IMG/VR virus record: IMGVR_UViG_3300020159_001814
Coordinates: 1-64,000 of that record
Direction: 5' to 3' (one strand)
Origin: a virus
DNA length: 64,000 nt
Position numbers and translations under genes: made by a program. The number at the start of each line of letters is the position of its first letter. The first letter of the stretch is position 1. Positions 221-35,847 of this stretch are shown here, piece after piece. The notes below the pieces were generated by a model that was not told where the DNA came from, searched no databases, and saw nothing but the letters and a program-made list of their open reading frames with translations.

Positions 221-293
221 TGTTCACGACGGGTTACGATCCCATTACCTCCGACGTATCAGATCGGCGCTCTACCAATTGAGCTACGTGAAC
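221..293 (-). tRNA. tRNA-Ile(GAU)
   Basis: GTTCACG acceptor; CCGAT-CTGATAC-GTCGG anticodon arm. Confidence 0.92.
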
Positions 294-299
294 TTATTG

Positions 300-372
300 C
301 GGACAAGGAAGGGTACGATCCTACAACCTATCGGTTAACAGCCGATTGCTCTACCAATTGAGCTACTTGTCC
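300..372 (-). tRNA. tRNA-Asn(GUU)
   Basis: GGACAAG acceptor; ATCGG-CTGTTAA-CCGAT anticodon arm. Confidence 0.92.
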
Positions 373-381
373 ATTTTGTTG

Positions 382-464
382 TGGGAGAGGAGGGACTCGA
401 ACCCCCAAGGTCTTACGACGACAGATTTACAGTCTGCTGAGCCAACCAATTGCTCAACTCTCCC
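382..464 (-). tRNA. tRNA-Tyr(GUA)
   Basis: GCAGA-CTGTAAA-TCTGT anticodon arm, long variable arm, GGGGG-TTCGAGT-CCCTC T arm. Confidence 0.93.
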
Positions 465-467
465 AAT

Positions 468-590
468 TCAGGAAAGGGGAAGATGGTTCAGTGGACATCC
501 CCTTTTATGATTGGCGTTACTATGACAGTTACAACTCCGATATAACCACGACTACTGACACGTTAACGTTATATCATTCCCCAATCAACC
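468..590 (-). ncRNA. unassigned structured RNA inside the tRNA array
   Basis: Stems TGATTGG/CCAATCA, GATATAAC/GTTATATC, AAAGGGGA/TCCCCTTT; not a cloverleaf. Confidence 0.5.
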
Positions 591-594
591 TTTG

Positions 595-668
595 TACACT
601 CTACAGGGATCGAACCTGTGACCTGTTGTATGTAAAACAACCGCTACTACCATCTGAGCTAAGAGTGT
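595..668 (-). tRNA. tRNA-Val(UAC)
   Basis: GTTGT-TTTACAT-ACAAC anticodon arm; ACAGG-TTCGATC-CCTGT T arm. Confidence 0.92.
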
Positions 669-739
669 GTGTTTTAGTTTCTTGGAACAAAGATAACCAT
701 TTTTTGGTATCTATCGTTCTTTTTTACTAAATTTTTTTG

Positions 740-814
740 TGATCCCGGTGAGTCTCGAACTCACGACCCCTCCATTAAAAGTGGAGTGCTCTAAACCAAC
801 TGAGCTACGAGATC
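740..814 (-). tRNA. tRNA-Lys(UUU)
   Basis: CTCCA-CTTTTAA-TGGAG anticodon arm. Confidence 0.93.
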
Positions 815-873
815 TTCTGTTTGTCATACTTGTCACTTTCCATAACACTTGTTTTTATTTGTTTATTTATTAG

Positions 874-946
874 TCTAAGTGACAGGGCTCGAACCTGCGG
901 CCTGAGAGTCCCAAACTCCCCGCTCTACCAACTGAGCTACACCTAG
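874..946 (-). tRNA. tRNA-Pro(UGG)
   Basis: GGGAG-TTTGGGA-CTCTC anticodon arm. Confidence 0.92.
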
Positions 947-954
947 TTATTTTT

Positions 955-1043
955 TGGAGGAAGAAGTAGGTGTCGATCCCAATACCCGCAAAGGTACCGC
1001 CCGTTTTCAAGACGGGGTCACAAGCCGTTGTGATTCATCTTCC
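955..1043 (-). tRNA. tRNA-Ser(UGA), tRNA-Sec-like architecture, encoded CCA
   Basis: CCCGT-CTTGAAA-ACGGG anticodon arm; 6-bp D stem TCACAA-CGGC-TTGTGA; long variable arm. Confidence 0.8.
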
Positions 1044-1049
1044 TTATTG

Positions 1050-1122
1050 TTTTCCCCCAAGGGTTCGAACCTCGATTCCGTGGACCAAAACCACGTGTCC
1101 TGCCAAGTTAGACGAGGGGAAA
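1050..1122 (-). tRNA. tRNA-Gln(UUG)
   Basis: CGTGG-TTTTGGT-CCACG anticodon arm. Confidence 0.92.
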
Positions 1123-1131
1123 TTATGAAGC

Positions 1132-1149
1132 CAATATGTCAAAGAACTT
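1132..1149 (-). promoter_or_regulatory. boxA-like antitermination element
   Basis: AAGTTCTTTGACATATTG resembles rrn boxA (TGCTCTTTAACA; recalled as GTTCTTTGA in Bacteroidota). Confidence 0.55.
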
Positions 1150-1163
1150 TTTCTTTTTGTTTG

Positions 1164-1236
1164 AGGTTCCTATCAGGTTCGAACTGATGACTCCGGGTTA
1201 CAAAGCCGGGGTATTACCAAACTATACTAAGGAACC
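1164..1236 (-). tRNA. tRNA-Thr(UGU)
   Basis: GGTTCCT acceptor; TTTGTAA anticodon loop; ATCAG-TTCGAAC-CTGAT T arm. Confidence 0.9.
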
Positions 1237-1250
1237 GAATTTTTGGGTAT

Positions 1251-1280
1251 AAAAAAAACCCGAACTTTTTTGGTTCGGGT
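1251..1280 (-). terminator. intrinsic terminator (attenuator) upstream of tRNA array
   Basis: ACCCGAAC-caaaaaa-GTTCGGGT followed by T run. Confidence 0.8.
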
Positions 1281-1314
1281 CTTATATTTCTTTTATATTT
1301 TTAGTTAATCTTTA

Positions 1315-1425
1315 TCAACTCATAAATGAAAATGCCCTAACCTGCGACTTAAGCGTACGATACACATTGAACGACCACTGAATGCTCGGGTTACAAATGT
1401 TCATATGTCTGTTAGTTGTTTTCAT
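1315..1425 (-). CDS. 36-aa putative leader peptide MKTTNRHMNICNPSIQWSFNVYRTLKSQVRAFSFMS
   Basis: Manual translation; lies between promoter boxes (1432-1438, 1471-1478) and the terminator. Confidence 0.55.
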   Translation of the reverse strand: MKTTNRHMNICNPSIQWSFNVYRTLKSQVRAFSFMS

Positions 1426-1470
1426 CTTGTTATAAATATATCGTTATTGTTAAAAGTTTTAATTATTGTA

Positions 1471-1500
1471 CAAATTTAGTTATTTTTTTCTATTTGACAA
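1471..1500 (-). promoter_or_regulatory. Bacteroidota-type promoter (TTG ... TAAATTTG)
   Basis: -7 box TAnnTTTG at 1471-1478, TTG about 19 nt upstream. Confidence 0.6.
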
Positions 1501-1533
1501 GTGTTTTTGTTATTTATTTTTAAATATTCTTCT

Positions 1534-1693
1534 TGTTCTTCCTCCAATCTACGTAAAAACACAACATAATGTGATTTTAACTAAAAAAATATAATTAATG
1601 TTTGAGTATTATTTAAAAACCACACTATAGTATGGTTTTCTCGTCATTTTTTTCAATATTTTCCTGTTCTTCCTCCAATCTACGTAAAAACAC
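1534..1693. repeat. 29-bp exact direct repeat (1534-1562, 1665-1693)
   Basis: TGTTCTTCCTCCAATCTACGTAAAAACAC twice. Confidence 0.9.
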
Positions 1694-1750
1694 GTAATAG
1701 TCTTCAGAATTTATAAATTCTTCATGTATTGTTTGGTGTATATCTTCCAT
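1625..1750 (-). CDS. 41-aa hypothetical protein (MEDIHQTIHEEF...)
   Basis: Manual translation, below ORF-track cutoff. Confidence 0.45.
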   Translation of the reverse strand: MEDIHQTIHEEFINSEDYYVFLRRLEEEQENIEKNDEKTIL

Positions 1751-1760
1751 AATTTTAAAG

Positions 1761-1838
1761 TGGTGATCCCGGAAGGATTCGAACCTTCAACCCTCGCCTT
1801 AGAAGGGCGATGCTCTAATCCAATTGAGCTACGGGACC
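1761..1838 (-). tRNA. tRNA-Arg(UCU), encoded CCA
   Basis: TCGCC-CTTCTAA-GGCGA anticodon arm. Confidence 0.95.
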
Positions 1839-3715: not shown

Positions 3716-4545
3716 AAAAACCTGAGATTACAGTTTTTTGTGAGAACCTTTAGAGTCATTATTGTTTCTACTCTTATCCACTTCCTTTTGAGAAGTATTC
3801 CTCAGTGACGATTATTTAGGTGAATCACTCCTTAAGGTATCAATTACTCTCTCATTACTCAACTCTCTTCGAGGATGCCTCCCCAACTATTCCTTGCGGG
3901 ATTAGAGGTTTTTGGTAAGAATGTAGTTCAACTTGCGGTATCACTACGCAACGAACAGCTCGTTACTATGTAGTCACCTTTCATTGACACCTGACGGACA
4001 CTTTTGCTTTCTAGTTATAAATGTTACCTTATTAACATAAAAGTTTTTGTGTCGTGGATTGTCGAAGTAGTGGTCCGTCTTTCAGCTTCGTTATCTTTTG
4101 AACAACGAAATACCAAACTACTCCGTGAAATGTCCCCATTTCCATATTTCAAGACTACTTCGAGATCTAACCCTTGGTGGGGTTCAATCAAGGTTAGTAA
4201 CAGCACCACCTGTACACCAACATACCTTTCGGTTTTAAGTATCCTATCTTATTGGAACACGCAATAATAAAATTGGATAATCTTATTTTTTGCAATATTC
4301 CTACGGGTTATTCCTATTAGTGTTCCCACTTCAAACTGACAACCCACATTGCCAGTTCGTCTAACCACTTTCCCTACAGCGTTGCCCTCGGTACTAAAGG
4401 TTAAACGGTATCCCGCTTGTGTACTCGATCTCGACAAATCCGAAGATTCACCAAGACGCAAATCAGTTACACTTCTGACTCACTTTATCCCACTTTCGTG
4501 GTTTATTTTAATGGACCATACACGGCCCAATGACTTAATTTAGTT
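3716..4545 (-). ncRNA. large structured ncRNA, GOLLD-like (~830 nt; ends approximate)
   Basis: No credible ORF, GC-richer, tetraloop hairpins (CCAC-GAAA-GTGG, ATC-TTCG-GAT, ACC-GAAA-GGT, CC-GCAA-GG), own promoter and terminator, near tRNAs; family assignment from size and context only. Confidence 0.65.
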
Positions 4546-23793: not shown

Positions 23794-24354
23794 TTATATT
23801 TTTTTAGTCTTTCTTCTTGCCGATAGGACTTTAGCCCATTTTGCTTTAAATTTTTGGTAATATGATGTTAATTTTGTTACCAATTCCGTTAGTTTTTCAT
23901 CCAACTTTATCATATCCCCATTAATATATACACCATTGTTTTCCCCTATTGAAAAGAAAAATTCTAAATCAAAATCAATAACTTTACCGCTCCATTGTAC
24001 TTCATTAGGGTACATATTTAACACACCAAAATCAGATAAATCGGATACTTCTTCAACAAATTCATCCATTGTTTCTTGAAACGCCGTTTTTTCTTCTGTT
24101 GTTAATTCTAATTCTTTTTTTTCTTTAGAATGGATGGTTAAAAGTCCACCAGAAATTCTATATGATTTACTTTTATCTTGTTTTACCATTTCAGAGTCTG
24201 TTTGACCATCACCACTTGTTTCGTATTCTTTATCGTCTTTTGATATTTCGTTTTCAATACTTTTTGCGATGTTTACTCCTTCAGGCTGTTCCATTAACAT
24301 TCTAGACCTTTTTAAAAGTCTTTTTATTTCATCATATTCATTAATCATTTCCAA
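23794..24354 (-). CDS. hypothetical protein
   Basis: ORF track. Confidence 0.75.
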   Translation of the reverse strand: MEMINEYDEIKRLLKRSRMLMEQPEGVNIAKSIENEISKDDKEYETSGDGQTDSEMVKQDKSKSYRISGGLLTIHSKEKKELELTTEEKTAFQETMDEFVEEVSDLSDFGVLNMYPNEVQWSGKVIDFDLEFFFSIGENNGVYINGDMIKLDEKLTELVTKLTSYYQKFKAKWAKVLSARRKTKKI

Positions 24355-24937
24355 TTAGTTTTTTTAATAGTTTAAAATCAAAAGCCGGATTTACGTCTTT
24401 ATGTGTTATATCAAAATTACTTTTAGATACCACACCGTTAAAGTTTTTAACATTATCCCACTTAACATTTGTCCCCAAACATTCTTTATTAATGTTGAAA
24501 TTATCACAAAGGGTTAATATTAACTTAGACAAGCTTTCTATTTGTTTATCTGTGTAAATGTCCCAATATGATTGATCCCTCCATTTTTTTTCAAATACTT
24601 CTCTTTTATAAATATCCCCTAACCATGTTACATACGTATCTTCTATAGGATTTTTTTTAAACCATCCTAAATTCTCTAAAGATATTGTTATTGCGTTTTT
24701 ATCTATATCGATATCTTCCATATATAAAGAGTAACGACTTGGGTCCATTATGGTGTAAATGTCACCACTTTTTGTAATCACATAATTTGGTAAGTATGGG
24801 TTTTTTTTATTATAACGGTACCTTAAAGAATTAATATAATCTTTATAAGACCTTTTAGTGTCTGTCAGGATTATTTGTTTTTTATCTTTGTTTTCACCGA
24901 AATACTTAAAATCTGTCAATTCGTAGTGATCCACCAT
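24341..24937 (-). CDS. Amidase_2-fold protein, zinc ligands apparently degenerate
   Basis: QIILTDT, NYVITKSGDI, AITISLEN, YTDKQIESL, HKDVNP pattern. Confidence 0.6.
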   Translation of the reverse strand: MVDHYELTDFKYFGENKDKKQIILTDTKRSYKDYINSLRYRYNKKNPYLPNYVITKSGDIYTIMDPSRYSLYMEDIDIDKNAITISLENLGWFKKNPIEDTYVTWLGDIYKREVFEKKWRDQSYWDIYTDKQIESLSKLILTLCDNFNINKECLGTNVKWDNVKNFNGVVSKSNFDITHKDVNPAFDFKLLKKLIGND

Positions 24938-26030
24938 TTCTATTTGTGTATGTCAGACGTTTAGGTTGTTCTTCAGTAGATTCCACTATGTTATCTTCTT
25001 TTTTTTCTAAAATATCATAGTCTTTGTTTTCAAAATAATCTTCAACAGGTAAAAATTCTTTTTTTACGGGTACTTCCACTATTTTTTCAACTATTTTTTC
25101 TACAGGTACTTCCACTATTTTTTCAATAATAATGGGGTCTACTTGGTCGGTACTTGGTCGGTTGTTAGTCGGTACTTGATCGGTAACTTGGGGGGTAACT
25201 TGGGGGGTAACTTGGGGGGTATCGTCTTCTTTTCGTCTTGATTTAAAAGCTTGGTTTGTGGCAATAACTAACGTGATGGCTAATGGGTCAAACACAAAGA
25301 TTAAAATTAGAATGAACAGGTTCGCAGTTCTTTTAATATCCCAATCAAGTAATTCACTAACATATTTTAAAGCTCCTAACTCACTTCCTGATATTTCTTC
25401 TGACTCCATATTTAAAATATCAACATCTAGTTTAGTTATACTATCATTCATATTATCTATTCTTTTAGCTATAGTATCTCTTCTTACTTGTGCTTGTGAT
25501 AGTTGTGTTTCAAATGTTTTTCTATTTGCGTTATTAGCCCTTGTTACAACTTGACCCGTTCGTTTATCTACGGACTGAGTTGTTGTATTATTAGATAATC
25601 CATCCCTTAGTTTGGTAATGTCTCCATCTAATGTGTTTTTTTCCTTAGTTAATTCATCTTTGACTTCTTCAAACCTTTTCTTTTTAACTTCAATGTTTTT
25701 AACTTGTTTTTCGTTTATTTCAAGTTTCGCTATATTCCCTTGGAATCCTGTACTTAGTAATCCGTATATCCCTAACGATGTGATCAGTGATAAAATCACA
25801 AGTGCGGTTGTTAAATATATCTTTAAAACCCCGTAAGTTTGTTTCCATTTGTCGTGTAGGTATGTTGCAATTGCAATTTTAGAAATTTCAAGGAAAGACC
25901 CCATTATAATAACTGGGATTGCAACACCAACAAAGACAATAGAAAGTCCAACAACGGAATAATATGCTGCAGTTCCTGATAGTCCCAACGCACAAATTAA
26001 CATAAACCACGGTAAAAATTTTTCTTTCAT
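24906..26030 (-). CDS. multi-TM coiled-coil membrane protein with PQVT and VEKIVEVP repeats
   Basis: 3 N-terminal TMs, long coiled coil, FVFDPLA TM. Confidence 0.8.
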   Translation of the reverse strand: MKEKFLPWFMLICALGLSGTAAYYSVVGLSIVFVGVAIPVIIMGSFLEISKIAIATYLHDKWKQTYGVLKIYLTTALVILSLITSLGIYGLLSTGFQGNIAKLEINEKQVKNIEVKKKRFEEVKDELTKEKNTLDGDITKLRDGLSNNTTTQSVDKRTGQVVTRANNANRKTFETQLSQAQVRRDTIAKRIDNMNDSITKLDVDILNMESEEISGSELGALKYVSELLDWDIKRTANLFILILIFVFDPLAITLVIATNQAFKSRRKEDDTPQVTPQVTPQVTDQVPTNNRPSTDQVDPIIIEKIVEVPVEKIVEKIVEVPVKKEFLPVEDYFENKDYDILEKKEDNIVESTEEQPKRLTYTNRNGGSLRIDRF

Positions 26031-26076
26031 ATTATTAAACTATAATTAATAAATACTTATAATAAAGATTAACATT

Positions 26077-26526
26077 ATGTCATTACTTAGAGAGTCAATA
26101 AGAAAGCACTTATTAGTTGAAAAAACTATCGCTCAAATTATTTCAAATATAGAAGTTTCATTCAATCTTGAAATTGATCGCAGTTTTCATGCTTTCGATA
26201 GAAAAAAAAGAAGCGACTTAGAAGGTAAGGGATTTGAATTAAGTGGTAAACACAGTTATGAATATAACCAAAGAGAAATAAGTAATCCTGAAATAAAAGA
26301 AGTCATTAATTTATCAAAAAAAGAAATTGCGGAAAAAATTGTATCAAGAGAAATCAACGATGAAGTTCCGTTTATTATAAAGTCTTTGAAGTGGGAAGTG
26401 GCAATTACTATAATACCAATGTTTCAGGGTGGAACGTATTGGATATTAAAAGTTAAGACAGTATTTAGGGAATCATTAGATAACCCTTTTAGGGTTGGTA
26501 AAGAACAATTAGTTATTTGGGTATAA
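26077..26526 (+). CDS. hypothetical protein with LRESIRKHLLVE leader
   Basis: ORF track. Confidence 0.7.
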   Translation: MSLLRESIRKHLLVEKTIAQIISNIEVSFNLEIDRSFHAFDRKKRSDLEGKGFELSGKHSYEYNQREISNPEIKEVINLSKKEIAEKIVSREINDEVPFIIKSLKWEVAITIIPMFQGGTYWILKVKTVFRESLDNPFRVGKEQLVIWV

Positions 26527-26557
26527 ATAAAAAATCCCACCGGTACCAGTGGGATTT
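26526..26557. terminator. intrinsic terminator, likely serving the minus-strand sRNA (possibly bidirectional)
   Basis: AAATCCCAC-8nt-GTGGGATTT, T run on minus strand. Confidence 0.7.
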
Positions 26558-26665
26558 CGTAGTTTCATCTTACCATATAGATAAGATTGAGGAATTTCAC
26601 CCTGAGAACCTCGTGTCTCATTCCGCCGAGTTGTAAGGGTAATCTCGGTTCAACCCTTTTTGTTT
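26530..26665 (-). ncRNA. candidate small RNA with two tandem pseudoknots
   Basis: Promoter TATCTTTG at 26672-79; AAGGGT/ACCCTT with CCGAG/CTCGG; TGAGA/TCTCA with GAGG/CCTC; terminator. Confidence 0.55.
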
Positions 26666-26691
26666 GTCTTACAAAGATATATCTTTTTTTA

Positions 26692-26979
26692 TTACAAACC
26701 TAACATTTCACCGACTTTTTTGAAATGTTTTTCAATTTTGTTCAAAGCTGCTGTTGCTTTTTGTTTGGTATTGAAATATGCGTAGAATTGACAGGATTCA
26801 GAATCAAATTCGGCAGTTATCTTTAATGTTTTTTCAACAAAACTTTCAAATTCATATGCGTCTTCCCATTTACGAATTGTGTTTTTATTGGGGAAACCTG
26901 TTAATGTCCATTGAGCCCCTTCCCAATTACCTTTAGTGATTGTTAATCCTACATTATAGATTGTTTCTGTGTTTGTCAT
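26692..26979 (-). CDS. hypothetical protein
   Basis: ORF track; TATATTTG box at 27000-27007. Confidence 0.7.
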   Translation of the reverse strand: MTNTETIYNVGLTITKGNWEGAQWTLTGFPNKNTIRKWEDAYEFESFVEKTLKITAEFDSESCQFYAYFNTKQKATAALNKIEKHFKKVGEMLGL

Positions 26980-27035: not shown

Positions 27036-27854
27036 TTACCCTAAATATTCAAATAAATCTGAACATTCGTTTCTTAACTTACGTAAAGCTTTTTCTTTAA
27101 TTTGTCTTACACGTTCTTTGGTTAATGAAAAATCAGTTCCAATATCTTCTAGTGTTCTTGGTGTGCCTGTAATCCCGTAATAGTCTTCAACAATTACCCT
27201 TTCTCTTTCGTCAAGTACACACATTATTTTCATCATTTTTTCTTTTAGTGCGTCTTTTGTTGAAAATATTTCGTCGGGAGCAACTACGTTATCATTTTTA
27301 ATAATATCAACTAGTGTGTCACCGTCTTCGTTTATATGCATATCCAAATCAATCATTCTTGGTAGGTTTGCAAACTTATCAGATAATTCTTTATTTGTTT
27401 TTTCGTTTTCACGTTTTTCTTTTTGCATGTCTTGTACGACATTTACCGGAAGTCTGATGGTACGTGAATTTTCGTTAAGTGATTGTAAAATTGATTGTTT
27501 AATCCACCAAACAGCGTAAGATATAAATCTATTATTTTTAGTCCAATCAAAATTATTAATCGCTTTCATTAAACCAAAGTTACCTTCAGCAATTAAGTCA
27601 GACAAATCAATCCCTTGATTTTGGTATTGTTTTGCTACTGTAATAACAAAACGTAGATTACCTTCTAACATTTCTTTTTGGATCTGTTTCTTTTCTCTTT
27701 CGGTACAATCTTTAGAACAAATACGTTCAGATAGTATTTTTTCTCTTTCAGGTGTCATCACCTTTAATTTTCTAATATCTTTCAAATAAATTTGAATTTC
27801 ATCCTGATTTAAAGGGTTTGTTGATTTTACTTCTTCCATTTTACTTCTTTCCAT
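27036..27854 (-). CDS. RNA polymerase sigma-70 (RpoD-type) factor lacking region 1.1
   Basis: NLRFVITVAKQY, DLIAEGNFGL, RFISYAVWWIKQSI, RTIRLP, TKERVRQIKEKAL. Confidence 0.95.
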   Translation of the reverse strand: MERSKMEEVKSTNPLNQDEIQIYLKDIRKLKVMTPEREKILSERICSKDCTEREKKQIQKEMLEGNLRFVITVAKQYQNQGIDLSDLIAEGNFGLMKAINNFDWTKNNRFISYAVWWIKQSILQSLNENSRTIRLPVNVVQDMQKEKRENEKTNKELSDKFANLPRMIDLDMHINEDGDTLVDIIKNDNVVAPDEIFSTKDALKEKMMKIMCVLDERERVIVEDYYGITGTPRTLEDIGTDFSLTKERVRQIKEKALRKLRNECSDLFEYLG

Positions 27855-35646: not shown

Positions 35647-35847
35647 CTAATCTTCTTCTATTTCAAAATCGTATTCATCTTCGTCTTGGATTTTGTCCCA
35701 TTCCAATTCTTGGTTACCTCTAAAATCAACTTCTTCGTAGAATTTATCTTCATCTTCTTCAAAAAGTTTTGCTTCTTCGTCTGTTAACTCGGCAGAATAC
35801 TTACAAATTGTTGTATAAGATTCAAACCATACTAATTTTTTTCCCAT
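35647..35847 (-). CDS. small acidic hypothetical protein
   Basis: ORF track. Confidence 0.65.
   Translation of the reverse strand: MGKKLVWFESYTTICKYSAELTDEEAKLFEEDEDKFYEEVDFRGNQELEWDKIQDEDEYDFEIEED

What the first reader, a model, noticed from the sequence alone, without database searches (positions are those of the whole stretch)
26530..26680. Small RNA with two tandem H-type pseudoknots, own promoter and terminator
Seen (minus strand): TATCTTTG promoter box, then AAGGGT-tgaa-CCGAG-att-ACCCTT-acaa-CTCGG (pseudoknot 1), TGAGA-cac-GAGG-t-TCTCA-gggtgaaatt-CCTC (pseudoknot 2), hairpin ATCTTATC/GGTAAGAT, then a terminator; no ORF. Alternative pairings (GGAAT/ATTCC, AGGGTGA/TTACCCT) could allow switching. 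Inference: a compact functional RNA, for example a pseudoknot decoy antitoxin (type III ToxI units are pseudoknots and phage mimics are known), a nuclease-resistant RNA or a ribozyme.
Basis: partly seen in the sequence, partly recalled or inferred. Interest (0 to 1): 0.7.

Follow-up and report, generated by a model that had tools for sequence, protein, structure and literature searches.

The report
Pseudoknotted phage RNA facing RNase gene
This is a real, strongly conserved, knotted small RNA of about 140 bases from large freshwater Bacteroidota phages. It matches no catalogued RNA family and lies tail-to-tail with a gene for a probable RelE/RegB-like RNA-cutting enzyme, so it is most likely that enzyme's RNA partner (antidote or regulator).

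Summary
The RNA is real. On the minus strand, about 26665 to 26527, it has a Bacteroidota -7 promoter box (TATCTTTG), a 5' H-type pseudoknot, three hairpins and an intrinsic terminator.

I collected 66 distinct homologues from uncultured phage contigs. Compensatory changes support every helix except one. No Rfam family matches.

The RNA changes 3 to 4 times more slowly than four-fold sites of the neighbouring sigma gene.

Neighbours vary. The only one kept across divergent phages is the convergent 149-aa ORF at 26077-26526. It has no Pfam family; its model weakly resembles RelE, colicin E5, CdiA-CT and T4 RegB.

Of 80 loci encoding this protein family:
- 17 face this RNA.
- 48 face a different promoter-driven small RNA.
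- The other 15 lack both RNA types; those inspected mostly face an 83-84 aa protein.

However, 65 of 119 RNA loci lack the protein, including two near-complete genomes.

Best reading (about 0.45): a protein-binding RNA partner, inhibitor or regulator, of a RegB/RelE-like RNase, often surviving as an orphan. It is not a ToxI-type antitoxin by membership.

Earlier agents of this scan reached the same reading on other genomes.

The parts
26672..26679 (-). Promoter -7 box TATCTTTG (Bacteroidota consensus TAnnTTTG). A weak -33-like TTTG lies at 26695-26698, with only a 15-nt spacer.
   Evidence: Sequence. The same box sits at the same distance from P1 in 24 of 55 distinct upstream contexts. Other loci have a fuller module, TTTGGCAGATT..N..TATCTTTG. 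The consensus itself is from my knowledge of Bacteroidota promoters.
26527..26665 (-). Predicted small RNA, about 139 nt. The start is inferred about 7 nt after the -7 box; the end is in the U-run.
   Evidence: The conserved block starts at about 26663 in nhmmer matches to 22 related loci. The ends are inferred; they were not mapped.
26626..26657 (-). H-type pseudoknot PK1. P1 is AGGGU 26657-26653 with ACCCU 26640-26636. P2 is CCGAG 26648-26644 with CUCGG 26630-26626. The loops UGAA, AUU and UACAA are almost invariant.
   Evidence: P1 covaries A-U/U-A, and P2 is compensated in the divergent subfamily.
26603..26620 (-). Hairpin P3, UGAGA/UCUCA, with loop CACGAGGU. The loop motif is ACGA.
   Evidence: Four covarying pairs. 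ACGA is present in all 29 distinct RNAs that have the adjacent ORF.
26590..26602 (-). Hairpin P4, GGG/CCU, with a 7-nt loop UGAAAUU (T-loop-like pentad UGAAA).
   Evidence: The outer pair is A-U/G-U/G-C, and U-A or C-G in L150/L151.
26567..26587 (-). Hairpin P5, AUCUUAUC/GGUAAGAU.
   Evidence: Four pairs with changes on both sides.
26562..26568 (-). Conserved single-stranded AUGAAAC after P5 (a second UGAAA pentad).
   Evidence: Alignments.
26525..26558 (-). Intrinsic terminator: 12-bp stem at 26558-26531 plus a U-run. It abuts the stop codon of the convergent ORF.
   Evidence: Seven covarying pairs.
26077..26526 (+). Convergent 149-aa ORF ('p149'), a probable RelE/RegB-like endoribonuclease. 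Invariant residues: E15, H38, R45, Q144.
   Evidence: Family alignments. No Pfam or PHROG match. Models have pLDDT 78 and 84. Weak fold matches.
26692..26979 (-). 95-aa ORF of unknown function between the sigma gene and the RNA. It is a variable insert.
   Evidence: It is present in only 9 of 119 RNA loci.
27036..27854 (-). Phage sigma-70 family factor, the usual upstream neighbour.
   Evidence: Pfam Sigma70_r2 and r4; PHROG 351. It lies upstream in 95 of 119 loci.
24341..26030 (-). Usual downstream genes: a 374-aa membrane/coiled-coil protein (24906-26030) and an Amidase_2 protein (24341-24937).

Best explanation
This is a stand-alone structured small RNA of about 140 nt and a new family. It is transcribed from a host-type Bacteroidota promoter; in phages where it directly follows the sigma gene, it would be released from that gene's 3' end. 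It folds into a 5' H-type pseudoknot, an ACGA-loop hairpin, a T-loop-like mini-hairpin, a variable hairpin and a terminator.

It most likely works by binding a protein rather than by long base-pairing. Its ancestral partner is the small RelE/RegB-like putative endoribonuclease encoded tail-to-tail with it (26077-26526). The RNA would inhibit, buffer or time that enzyme, acting as an RNA antidote or regulator.

In phages that lost the enzyme gene, the RNA persists as an orphan, perhaps guarding against the same enzyme from co-infecting relatives.

Shown: the RNA, its fold, its constraint and the gene-RNA association.
Inferred: transcription, RNase activity, binding and direction of control.
For: The structure is real:
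- Covariation in P1, P2, P3, P4, P5 and the terminator.
- No Rfam match.

It is an independent unit:
- In L056, L064, L135 and L150-type loci, both flanking genes are on the other strand and a TAnnTTTG box precedes the RNA.

It is constrained:
- RNA divergence is 0.12-0.16, against 0.53-0.55 at four-fold sites of the adjacent sigma gene.

It is associated with the ORF:
- The ORF is the only neighbour kept in all divergent contexts.
- In L030/L035 it stays adjacent but head-to-head.
- Of 80 loci of the protein family, 17 face this RNA and 48 face a second type of promoter-driven small RNA. Most of the remaining loci inspected face an 83-84 aa protein.
- ACGA-containing loops are shared by this RNA's P3 and by most type B hairpin loops; some type B middle hairpins lack it.

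Protein fold:
- Four-stranded sheet after helices.
- Best PDB rows are CdiA-CT RNase (Z 5.9, 87 aligned, rmsd 3.4), RelE/ParE/HigB toxins, colicin E5 and D, and T4 RegB.
- BFVD match to a T4-like 'site-specific RNA endonuclease' (E 8e-4).
Against: - 65 of 119 RNA loci lack the protein. Two near-complete genomes (99% and 93%) have the RNA but no family member by profile search. The RNA is nearly as constrained there, so it has a function that does not need the protein.
- The partner type changed at least 6 times on the protein tree. This could mean mere co-location in a variable locus downstream of the sigma gene.
- Fold matches are all below Z 8, and no catalytic test exists.
- No transcription evidence: the single metatranscriptome contig stops at 26672, upstream of the RNA.
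- A short third RNA type (L014/L015) lacks ACGA.
Confidence: 0.45

Rival explanations
1. A trans-acting base-pairing small RNA. Its conserved single strands (GGCGGAA, CAAU, AUGAAACUACACU) would target host or phage mRNAs. The neighbouring ORF would be unrelated cargo of a variable locus.
For: - It has its own promoter and terminator.
- It persists under constraint without the ORF.
- The site after the sigma gene hosts several unrelated small RNAs.
Against: - No convincing complementary site in the window. The only non-self match is an 11-mer with one G-U, and half of it lies in P2.
- Near-invariant loops of a pseudoknot and a T-loop-like hairpin point to shape recognition.
- The ORF-RNA adjacency recurs in unrelated contexts and in two orientations.
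Confidence: 0.2
2. A cis-acting leader, either a riboswitch or a protein-dependent attenuator. Its terminator would gate read-through into whatever lies downstream: the 374-aa protein and amidase genes, or antisense transcription across the convergent ORF.
For: - Where the ORF is absent, the ~400-aa protein gene starts only 30-60 nt after the terminator, on the same strand.
- The highly conserved loops resemble an aptamer.
Against: - No conserved antiterminator. With the 3' arm removed, the 5' arm is largely unpaired in 35 of 54 sequences, and its partners are inconsistent in the rest.
- Terminator stems vary freely with no matching change upstream.
- L074/L096/L128 lack the terminator.
- Downstream genes differ between contexts.
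- No Rfam riboswitch match.
Confidence: 0.15
3. A cis-antisense regulator of the convergent ORF's mRNA through overlapping 3' ends. This would resemble Bacillus type I pairs such as txpA/RatA (named from my own knowledge).
For: - The ORF's stop codon lies 5 nt from the shared hairpin.
- On the ORF's strand the hairpin is followed by a poor U-run, so its mRNA probably runs into the RNA gene.
Against: - The head-to-head arrangement in L030/L035.
- The RNA is kept without the ORF.
- The conserved elaborate fold is not needed for antisense pairing.
- The ORF is a 149-aa soluble protein, not a small membrane peptide.
Confidence: 0.1
4. A self-cleaving ribozyme, or an exonuclease-resistant or stabilising element for the sigma mRNA's 3' end.
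For: - A compact pseudoknotted fold.
- In about 40% of contexts it starts 2-5 nt after the sigma stop codon.
Against: - No match to any ribozyme or xrRNA model in Rfam.
- It occurs far from any sigma gene with its own promoter.
Confidence: 0.05

Closest known systems
Type III toxin-antitoxin systems (ToxIN, CptIN, TenpIN; PMC3401426)
   Same: A pseudoknotted RNA encoded next to a small putative endoribonuclease gene, separated by a terminator, on a mobile genome. The plausible logic is RNA inhibition of a protein RNase.
   Different: - No tandem repeats.
- The RNA and the gene are convergent, or head-to-head, and not in one operon.
- The protein has no ToxN-family match, and its model resembles the RelE/RegB/colicin E5 fold instead.
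- The RNA is a single unit of about 140 nt with five helices.
- The RNA often occurs alone.
T4 RegB endoribonuclease and RelE/YoeB toxins (PMC3014915)
   Same: A phage-encoded protein of about 150 aa with helices followed by a four-stranded sheet. A BFVD match to a T4-like 'site-specific RNA endonuclease' and weak PDB matches to RegB and RelE.
   Different: - No sequence similarity.
- Only one invariant His, whereas RegB uses His48 and His68.
- The sources I read (PMC3014915, PMC1702504) describe no dedicated small-RNA partner for RegB. RelE-type toxins have protein antitoxins (my own knowledge).
Protein-sequestering small RNAs such as CsrB/RsmZ (named from my own knowledge)
   Same: Hairpin loops display a short repeated motif. 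This is clearest in the alternative 'type B' RNAs, which have 1-3 loops carrying ACGAUUNAGAUAC.
   Different: - A different motif and a different protein fold.
- This RNA has one ACGA loop plus a pseudoknot.
- No binding data.

Membership tests
H-type pseudoknot | Two helices, with the 3' strand of the first lying between the strands of the second, each supported across homologues. | tested here: met
   P1 pair 4-25 is A-U 32 / U-A 19. P2 has five haplotypes with compensatory changes.
Type III toxin-antitoxin (ToxIN/CptIN/TenpIN) | The antitoxin is encoded as short tandem direct repeats (PMC3401426 abstract). | tested here: not met
   Tandem Repeats Finder gives 0 rows at 26300-26900. There is a single copy per contig.
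Type III toxin-antitoxin (ToxIN/CptIN/TenpIN) | The repeats lie upstream of the toxin gene on the same strand. | tested here: not met
   The ORF is convergent in 50 loci and head-to-head in 4.
Type III toxin-antitoxin (ToxIN/CptIN/TenpIN) | The toxin belongs to the ToxN, CptN or TenpN protein families. | tested here: inconclusive
   No Pfam family for any of 31 members. Fold lists are led by RelE-type and colicin-type RNases, but all are below Z 6.
Type III toxin-antitoxin (ToxIN/CptIN/TenpIN) | The RNA pseudoknot binds and neutralises the toxin and is processed by it. | not testable with these tools
   Needs co-expression, binding and cleavage assays.
Type I toxin-antitoxin with 3' overlap | A small hydrophobic toxin peptide, and an antisense RNA overlapping its mRNA. 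| tested here: not met
   The ORF is a 149-aa soluble protein. The RNA is kept without it, and a head-to-head variant exists.
Any Rfam 15 family (riboswitches, ribozymes, ToxI, known small RNAs) | Covariance-model score at or near the family threshold. | tested here: not met
   Best hit is 19 bits against a threshold of 55, and it covers only the terminator. Nothing in relatives at E up to 0.1.
Transcription-terminating riboswitch | A conserved antiterminator alternative to the terminator, and a fixed regulated gene downstream. | tested here: not met
   No consistent alternative pairing. Downstream genes differ between contexts.
RelE/RegB/colicin E5-type (BECR) RNase fold, for the ORF | Helices packed on a four-stranded antiparallel sheet, with structural matches to family members. 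| tested here: inconclusive
   The topology fits. PDB matches: Z 5.9 to a CdiA-CT, 4.6-3.2 to RelE/ParE/HigB/colicins, 3.3-3.6 to RegB. BFVD E 8e-4 to a RegB-annotated protein. All are below the level that excludes a common arrangement.

The most novel reading that the evidence does not exclude
A new class of RNA-protein pair in which a RelE/RegB-fold endoribonuclease is held in check by a dedicated structured RNA. That partner slot can be filled by unrelated RNAs, or by a small protein, in different phages. Orphan copies of the RNA may serve as immunity against the enzyme of competing phages.
Probability: 0.3. Interest if true: 0.8.

Novelty: new variant of a known kind. Interest (0 to 1): 0.65.

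Why it matters
RNA antidotes are known only for ToxN-type toxins; RelE-fold RNases are thought to be neutralised by proteins.

A phage RNase family whose members face interchangeable small RNAs would widen the known range of RNA-protein control. It would also give a first function to a structured RNA family of abundant freshwater Bacteroidota phages, and suggest how such phages time mRNA destruction or compete with each other.

Independently of the mechanism, this is an uncatalogued, covariation-supported RNA fold of about 75 nt (pseudoknot, ACGA hairpin, T-loop-like hairpin) that is suitable for structural study.

Tried and rejected
- Rfam at gathering and permissive thresholds on the window and on 10 related loci: nothing relevant.
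- DNA search of deposited phage genomes: no match. A protein search found one uncultured 635-kb phage.
- RNAalifold proposed a long-range GGUU/AACY helix competing with P1. It has only one-sided changes and is not kept in the divergent subfamily, so I did not adopt it.
- Antiterminator search by folding truncated transcripts: inconsistent.
- Seed-complement searches in the window: no convincing target.
- Tandem repeats: none.
- Expression: one freshwater metatranscriptome held a small share of words. Its only specific contig covers 26672-26843 and stops before the RNA, which is uninformative either way.
- Bacterial genomes: only three matches, all on Bacteroidetes/Crocinitomicaceae MAG contigs, so the RNA does not mimic a host gene.
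- Pfam, PHROGs, PDB sequence profiles and the ESM Atlas gave no name for the ORF. Foldseek against the PDB also found nothing significant.
- I did not build a covariance model. nhmmer and pattern scans gave enough homologues.

Full report
**Setting**

The window is part of a 77.8-kb IMG/VR viral contig, estimated 26% complete. Its relatives are phages of 270-320 kb. The window also carries a GOLLD RNA and eight tRNA genes.

Promoter boxes of the TAnnTTTG type point to Bacteroidota hosts in fresh water. So do the only three bacterial-assembly matches, all on Bacteroidetes or Crocinitomicaceae MAG contigs. This fits the huge freshwater Bacteroidetes phages described in PMC9723584.

**The observation**

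- TATCTTTG at 26679-26672.
- AGGGU ... CCGAG ... ACCCU ... CUCGG.
- The hairpins UGAGA/UCUCA and AUCUUAUC/GGUAAGAT.
- A 12-bp terminator with a U-run.

The single sequence folds better than its shuffles (z = -2.5).

**Homologues**

- nhmmer found the element in 22 of 54 loci fetched through the neighbouring proteins.
- A scan of viral contigs with the pseudoknot core found 93 stretches with 58 distinct sequences, one copy per contig.
- A second scan used only the 3' half, so it was blind to the pseudoknot. It recovered the same family plus a divergent subfamily: L150, L151, L154-156, L165, L168, L174, L175.

**Structure**

On the 58-sequence alignment my model pairs 93.7% of cells. Shuffles give 86.1%, and sliding the partners gives 37-52%. 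17 pairs change on both sides.

- **P1** covaries at one pair (A-U 32, U-A 19).
- **P2** was invariant in that set by construction. The divergent subfamily replaces CCGAG/CUCGG with 8-bp helices TCGGTTAA/TTAATCGA, TTGGTTAA/TTAACCGA and TTGGTTAG/CTAATCAA. The first pseudoknot is therefore real.
- **P3, P5 and the terminator** covary at four or more pairs each.
Its pair 52-73 is broken in 46 of 58 sequences.
- **P4** is a local hairpin formed by the CCU, N-GG[UGAAAWU]CC-N'. Its outer pair takes all of A-U, G-U, G-C, U-A and C-G. RNAalifold found it independently.
- **UGAAA pentads:** the P4 loop and the conserved AUGAAAC after P5 both fit the T-loop pentad. That reading comes from my own knowledge and was not tested.

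The conserved core is PK1-P3-P4, about 75 nt. P5 and the terminator are replaceable, as L074, L266 and L268 show.

No Rfam family matches.

**Constraint**

Between pairs of phages, four-fold degenerate sites of the adjacent sigma gene differ at 0.53-0.55. The RNA differs at only 0.12-0.16.

**Transcription unit**

In the window and many relatives, a TAnnTTTG box lies 13-20 nt before P1. In L056, L064, L135 and the L150 group, the genes on both sides are on the opposite strand. There the RNA must be its own unit.

In about 40% of contexts, the RNA starts 2-5 nt after the sigma stop codon without a clear box. In those it may be a 3'-end product.

Expression could not be shown.

**Neighbours**

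Counts among 119 RNA loci:

| Neighbour | Loci |
|---|---|
| Sigma-70 gene upstream | 95 |
| ~400-aa membrane protein downstream | 99 |
| Amidase downstream | 86 |
| Convergent ~140-aa ORF between RNA and downstream genes | 50 |
| Same ORF upstream, head-to-head (L030, L035, L082, L123) | 4 |

In every divergent context where sigma and the lysis-type genes are absent, the convergent ORF is still there.

The converse test used 80 loci of this protein family:
- 17 face this RNA.
- 48 face a different small RNA with its own TAnnTTTG box. It has 1-3 hairpins whose ~20-nt loops carry ACGAUUNAGAUAC.
- 15 face neither type. Of the distinct ones inspected, six face an 83-84 aa ORF of unknown function and two (L250, L251) face no ORF.

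ACGA also sits in the P3 loop of all 29 distinct RNAs that have the ORF. It is lost in 16 of 31 that lack the ORF, probably a single clade.

On the protein tree, the partner type changes at least six times.

The site after the sigma gene also holds other small RNAs behind a conserved promoter module. It is a variable locus.

**The protein**

- It has no Pfam or PHROG family, and 197 homologues are all unnamed.
- E15, H38, R45 and Q144 are invariant.
- AlphaFold models (pLDDT 78 and 84) show helices followed by a four-stranded sheet.
- Foldseek against the PDB found nothing significant.
- The exhaustive aligner gave only weak scores, but the lists are dominated by RNase toxins: CdiA-CT (Z 5.9), RelE, ParE, HigB, BrnT, colicin E5 and D, and T4 RegB.
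- In BFVD it matches a T4-like 'site-specific RNA endonuclease' (E 8e-4) and a Tenacibaculum phage protein.
- RegB is itself a RelE/YoeB-like phage RNase (PMC3014915).

I treat the RNase assignment as probable, not shown.

**Limits of the pairing model**

Two near-complete genomes (99% and 93%) carry the RNA but no member of the protein family. The RNA is nearly as constrained in such genomes: ratio 0.29 against 0.23. So the RNA works without the protein, or against one supplied from elsewhere.

**Comparison with known systems**

Type III systems are defined by tandem-repeat pseudoknot antitoxins upstream of ToxN-type toxins (PMC3401426). Here there are no repeats, the strands are opposite and the toxin family differs. 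This is 'works perhaps like', not 'is a member of'.

A riboswitch is unlikely. There is no conserved antiterminator and no fixed downstream gene.

**Earlier findings of this scan**

Earlier agents, working on other genomes, described the same RNA family and reached the same reading. My analysis was made before I read them, and it agrees.

**Verdict**

This is a real, uncatalogued structured phage RNA with one pseudoknot, not two. It is most likely the RNA partner of a RegB/RelE-like enzyme, and the mechanism is unproven.

Noticed in passing
window 3719-4125 (-) and 221-1838 (-): A full-length GOLLD RNA (323 bits) lies next to an array of eight tRNA genes.
   Followed up: no
L204-L245, L261-L265, L192, L017, L023, L025 (for example L226:1912-2050, minus strand): A second uncatalogued small-RNA type ('type B') lies convergent to homologues of the 149-aa ORF. 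It has its own TAnnTTTG promoter, 1-3 hairpins with ~20-nt loops carrying RGRAACGAUUNAGAUACAA, and often a middle hairpin with loop AACGAAACAAU. No Rfam match.
   Followed up: partly
L014:4850-4940, L015:4850-4930, L016:4815-4880, L019:4850-4990: The site just after the phage sigma gene is a variable small-RNA locus behind a conserved promoter module (TTTGGCAGATT ... TATCTTTG). It holds a short 'type C' hairpin RNA or another structured RNA instead of the pseudoknotted one.
   Followed up: partly
L246:1911-2159 (-), L249:1917-2165 (-), L260:1911-2162 (-): In one clade of the 149-aa protein family, the convergent partner is an 83-84 aa protein with no known domain, instead of an RNA. It could be a protein counterpart of the RNA partner.
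   Followed up: partly
L269 (LR745206.1 314544-316351): ORF 1175-1777 (-): In a 635-kb uncultured phage, the homologue of the 149-aa ORF (40% identity) is convergent with a 200-aa protein carrying S1 RNA-binding domains (Pfam S1, E 2e-20). T4 RegB is activated by ribosomal protein S1 (PMC1702504), so this may be more than coincidence.
   Followed up: partly
window 26077-26250 (+), residues 2-57 of the ORF: A profile of the ORF family gives a weak match (E 0.023) to residues 414-471 of an RNA polymerase beta subunit (7l7b_C), including the invariant His and Arg. It is probably chance, but the gene lies near a sigma factor.
   Followed up: no
L153, L158, L159, L166, L167 (for example L158:6745-6900): Unrelated viral contigs share another conserved RNA-like element, GTTCAACGACTATCCC ... 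GGTGAAATTCC ... GGGTGAAAATCCC. The 3'-half pattern picked it up by accident.
   Followed up: no
window 35788-35798 (-): This 11-nt site (ATTCTGCCGAG) could pair with CUCGGCGGAAU of the RNA through one G-U. About 0.1 such matches are expected by chance, and half of the RNA segment lies in P2.
   Followed up: no
window 26031-26076: The 46-nt gap before the 149-aa ORF has no TAnnTTTG box, whereas the RNA has one. The two may therefore be read by different polymerase holoenzymes or at different times. This is an inference only.
   Followed up: no
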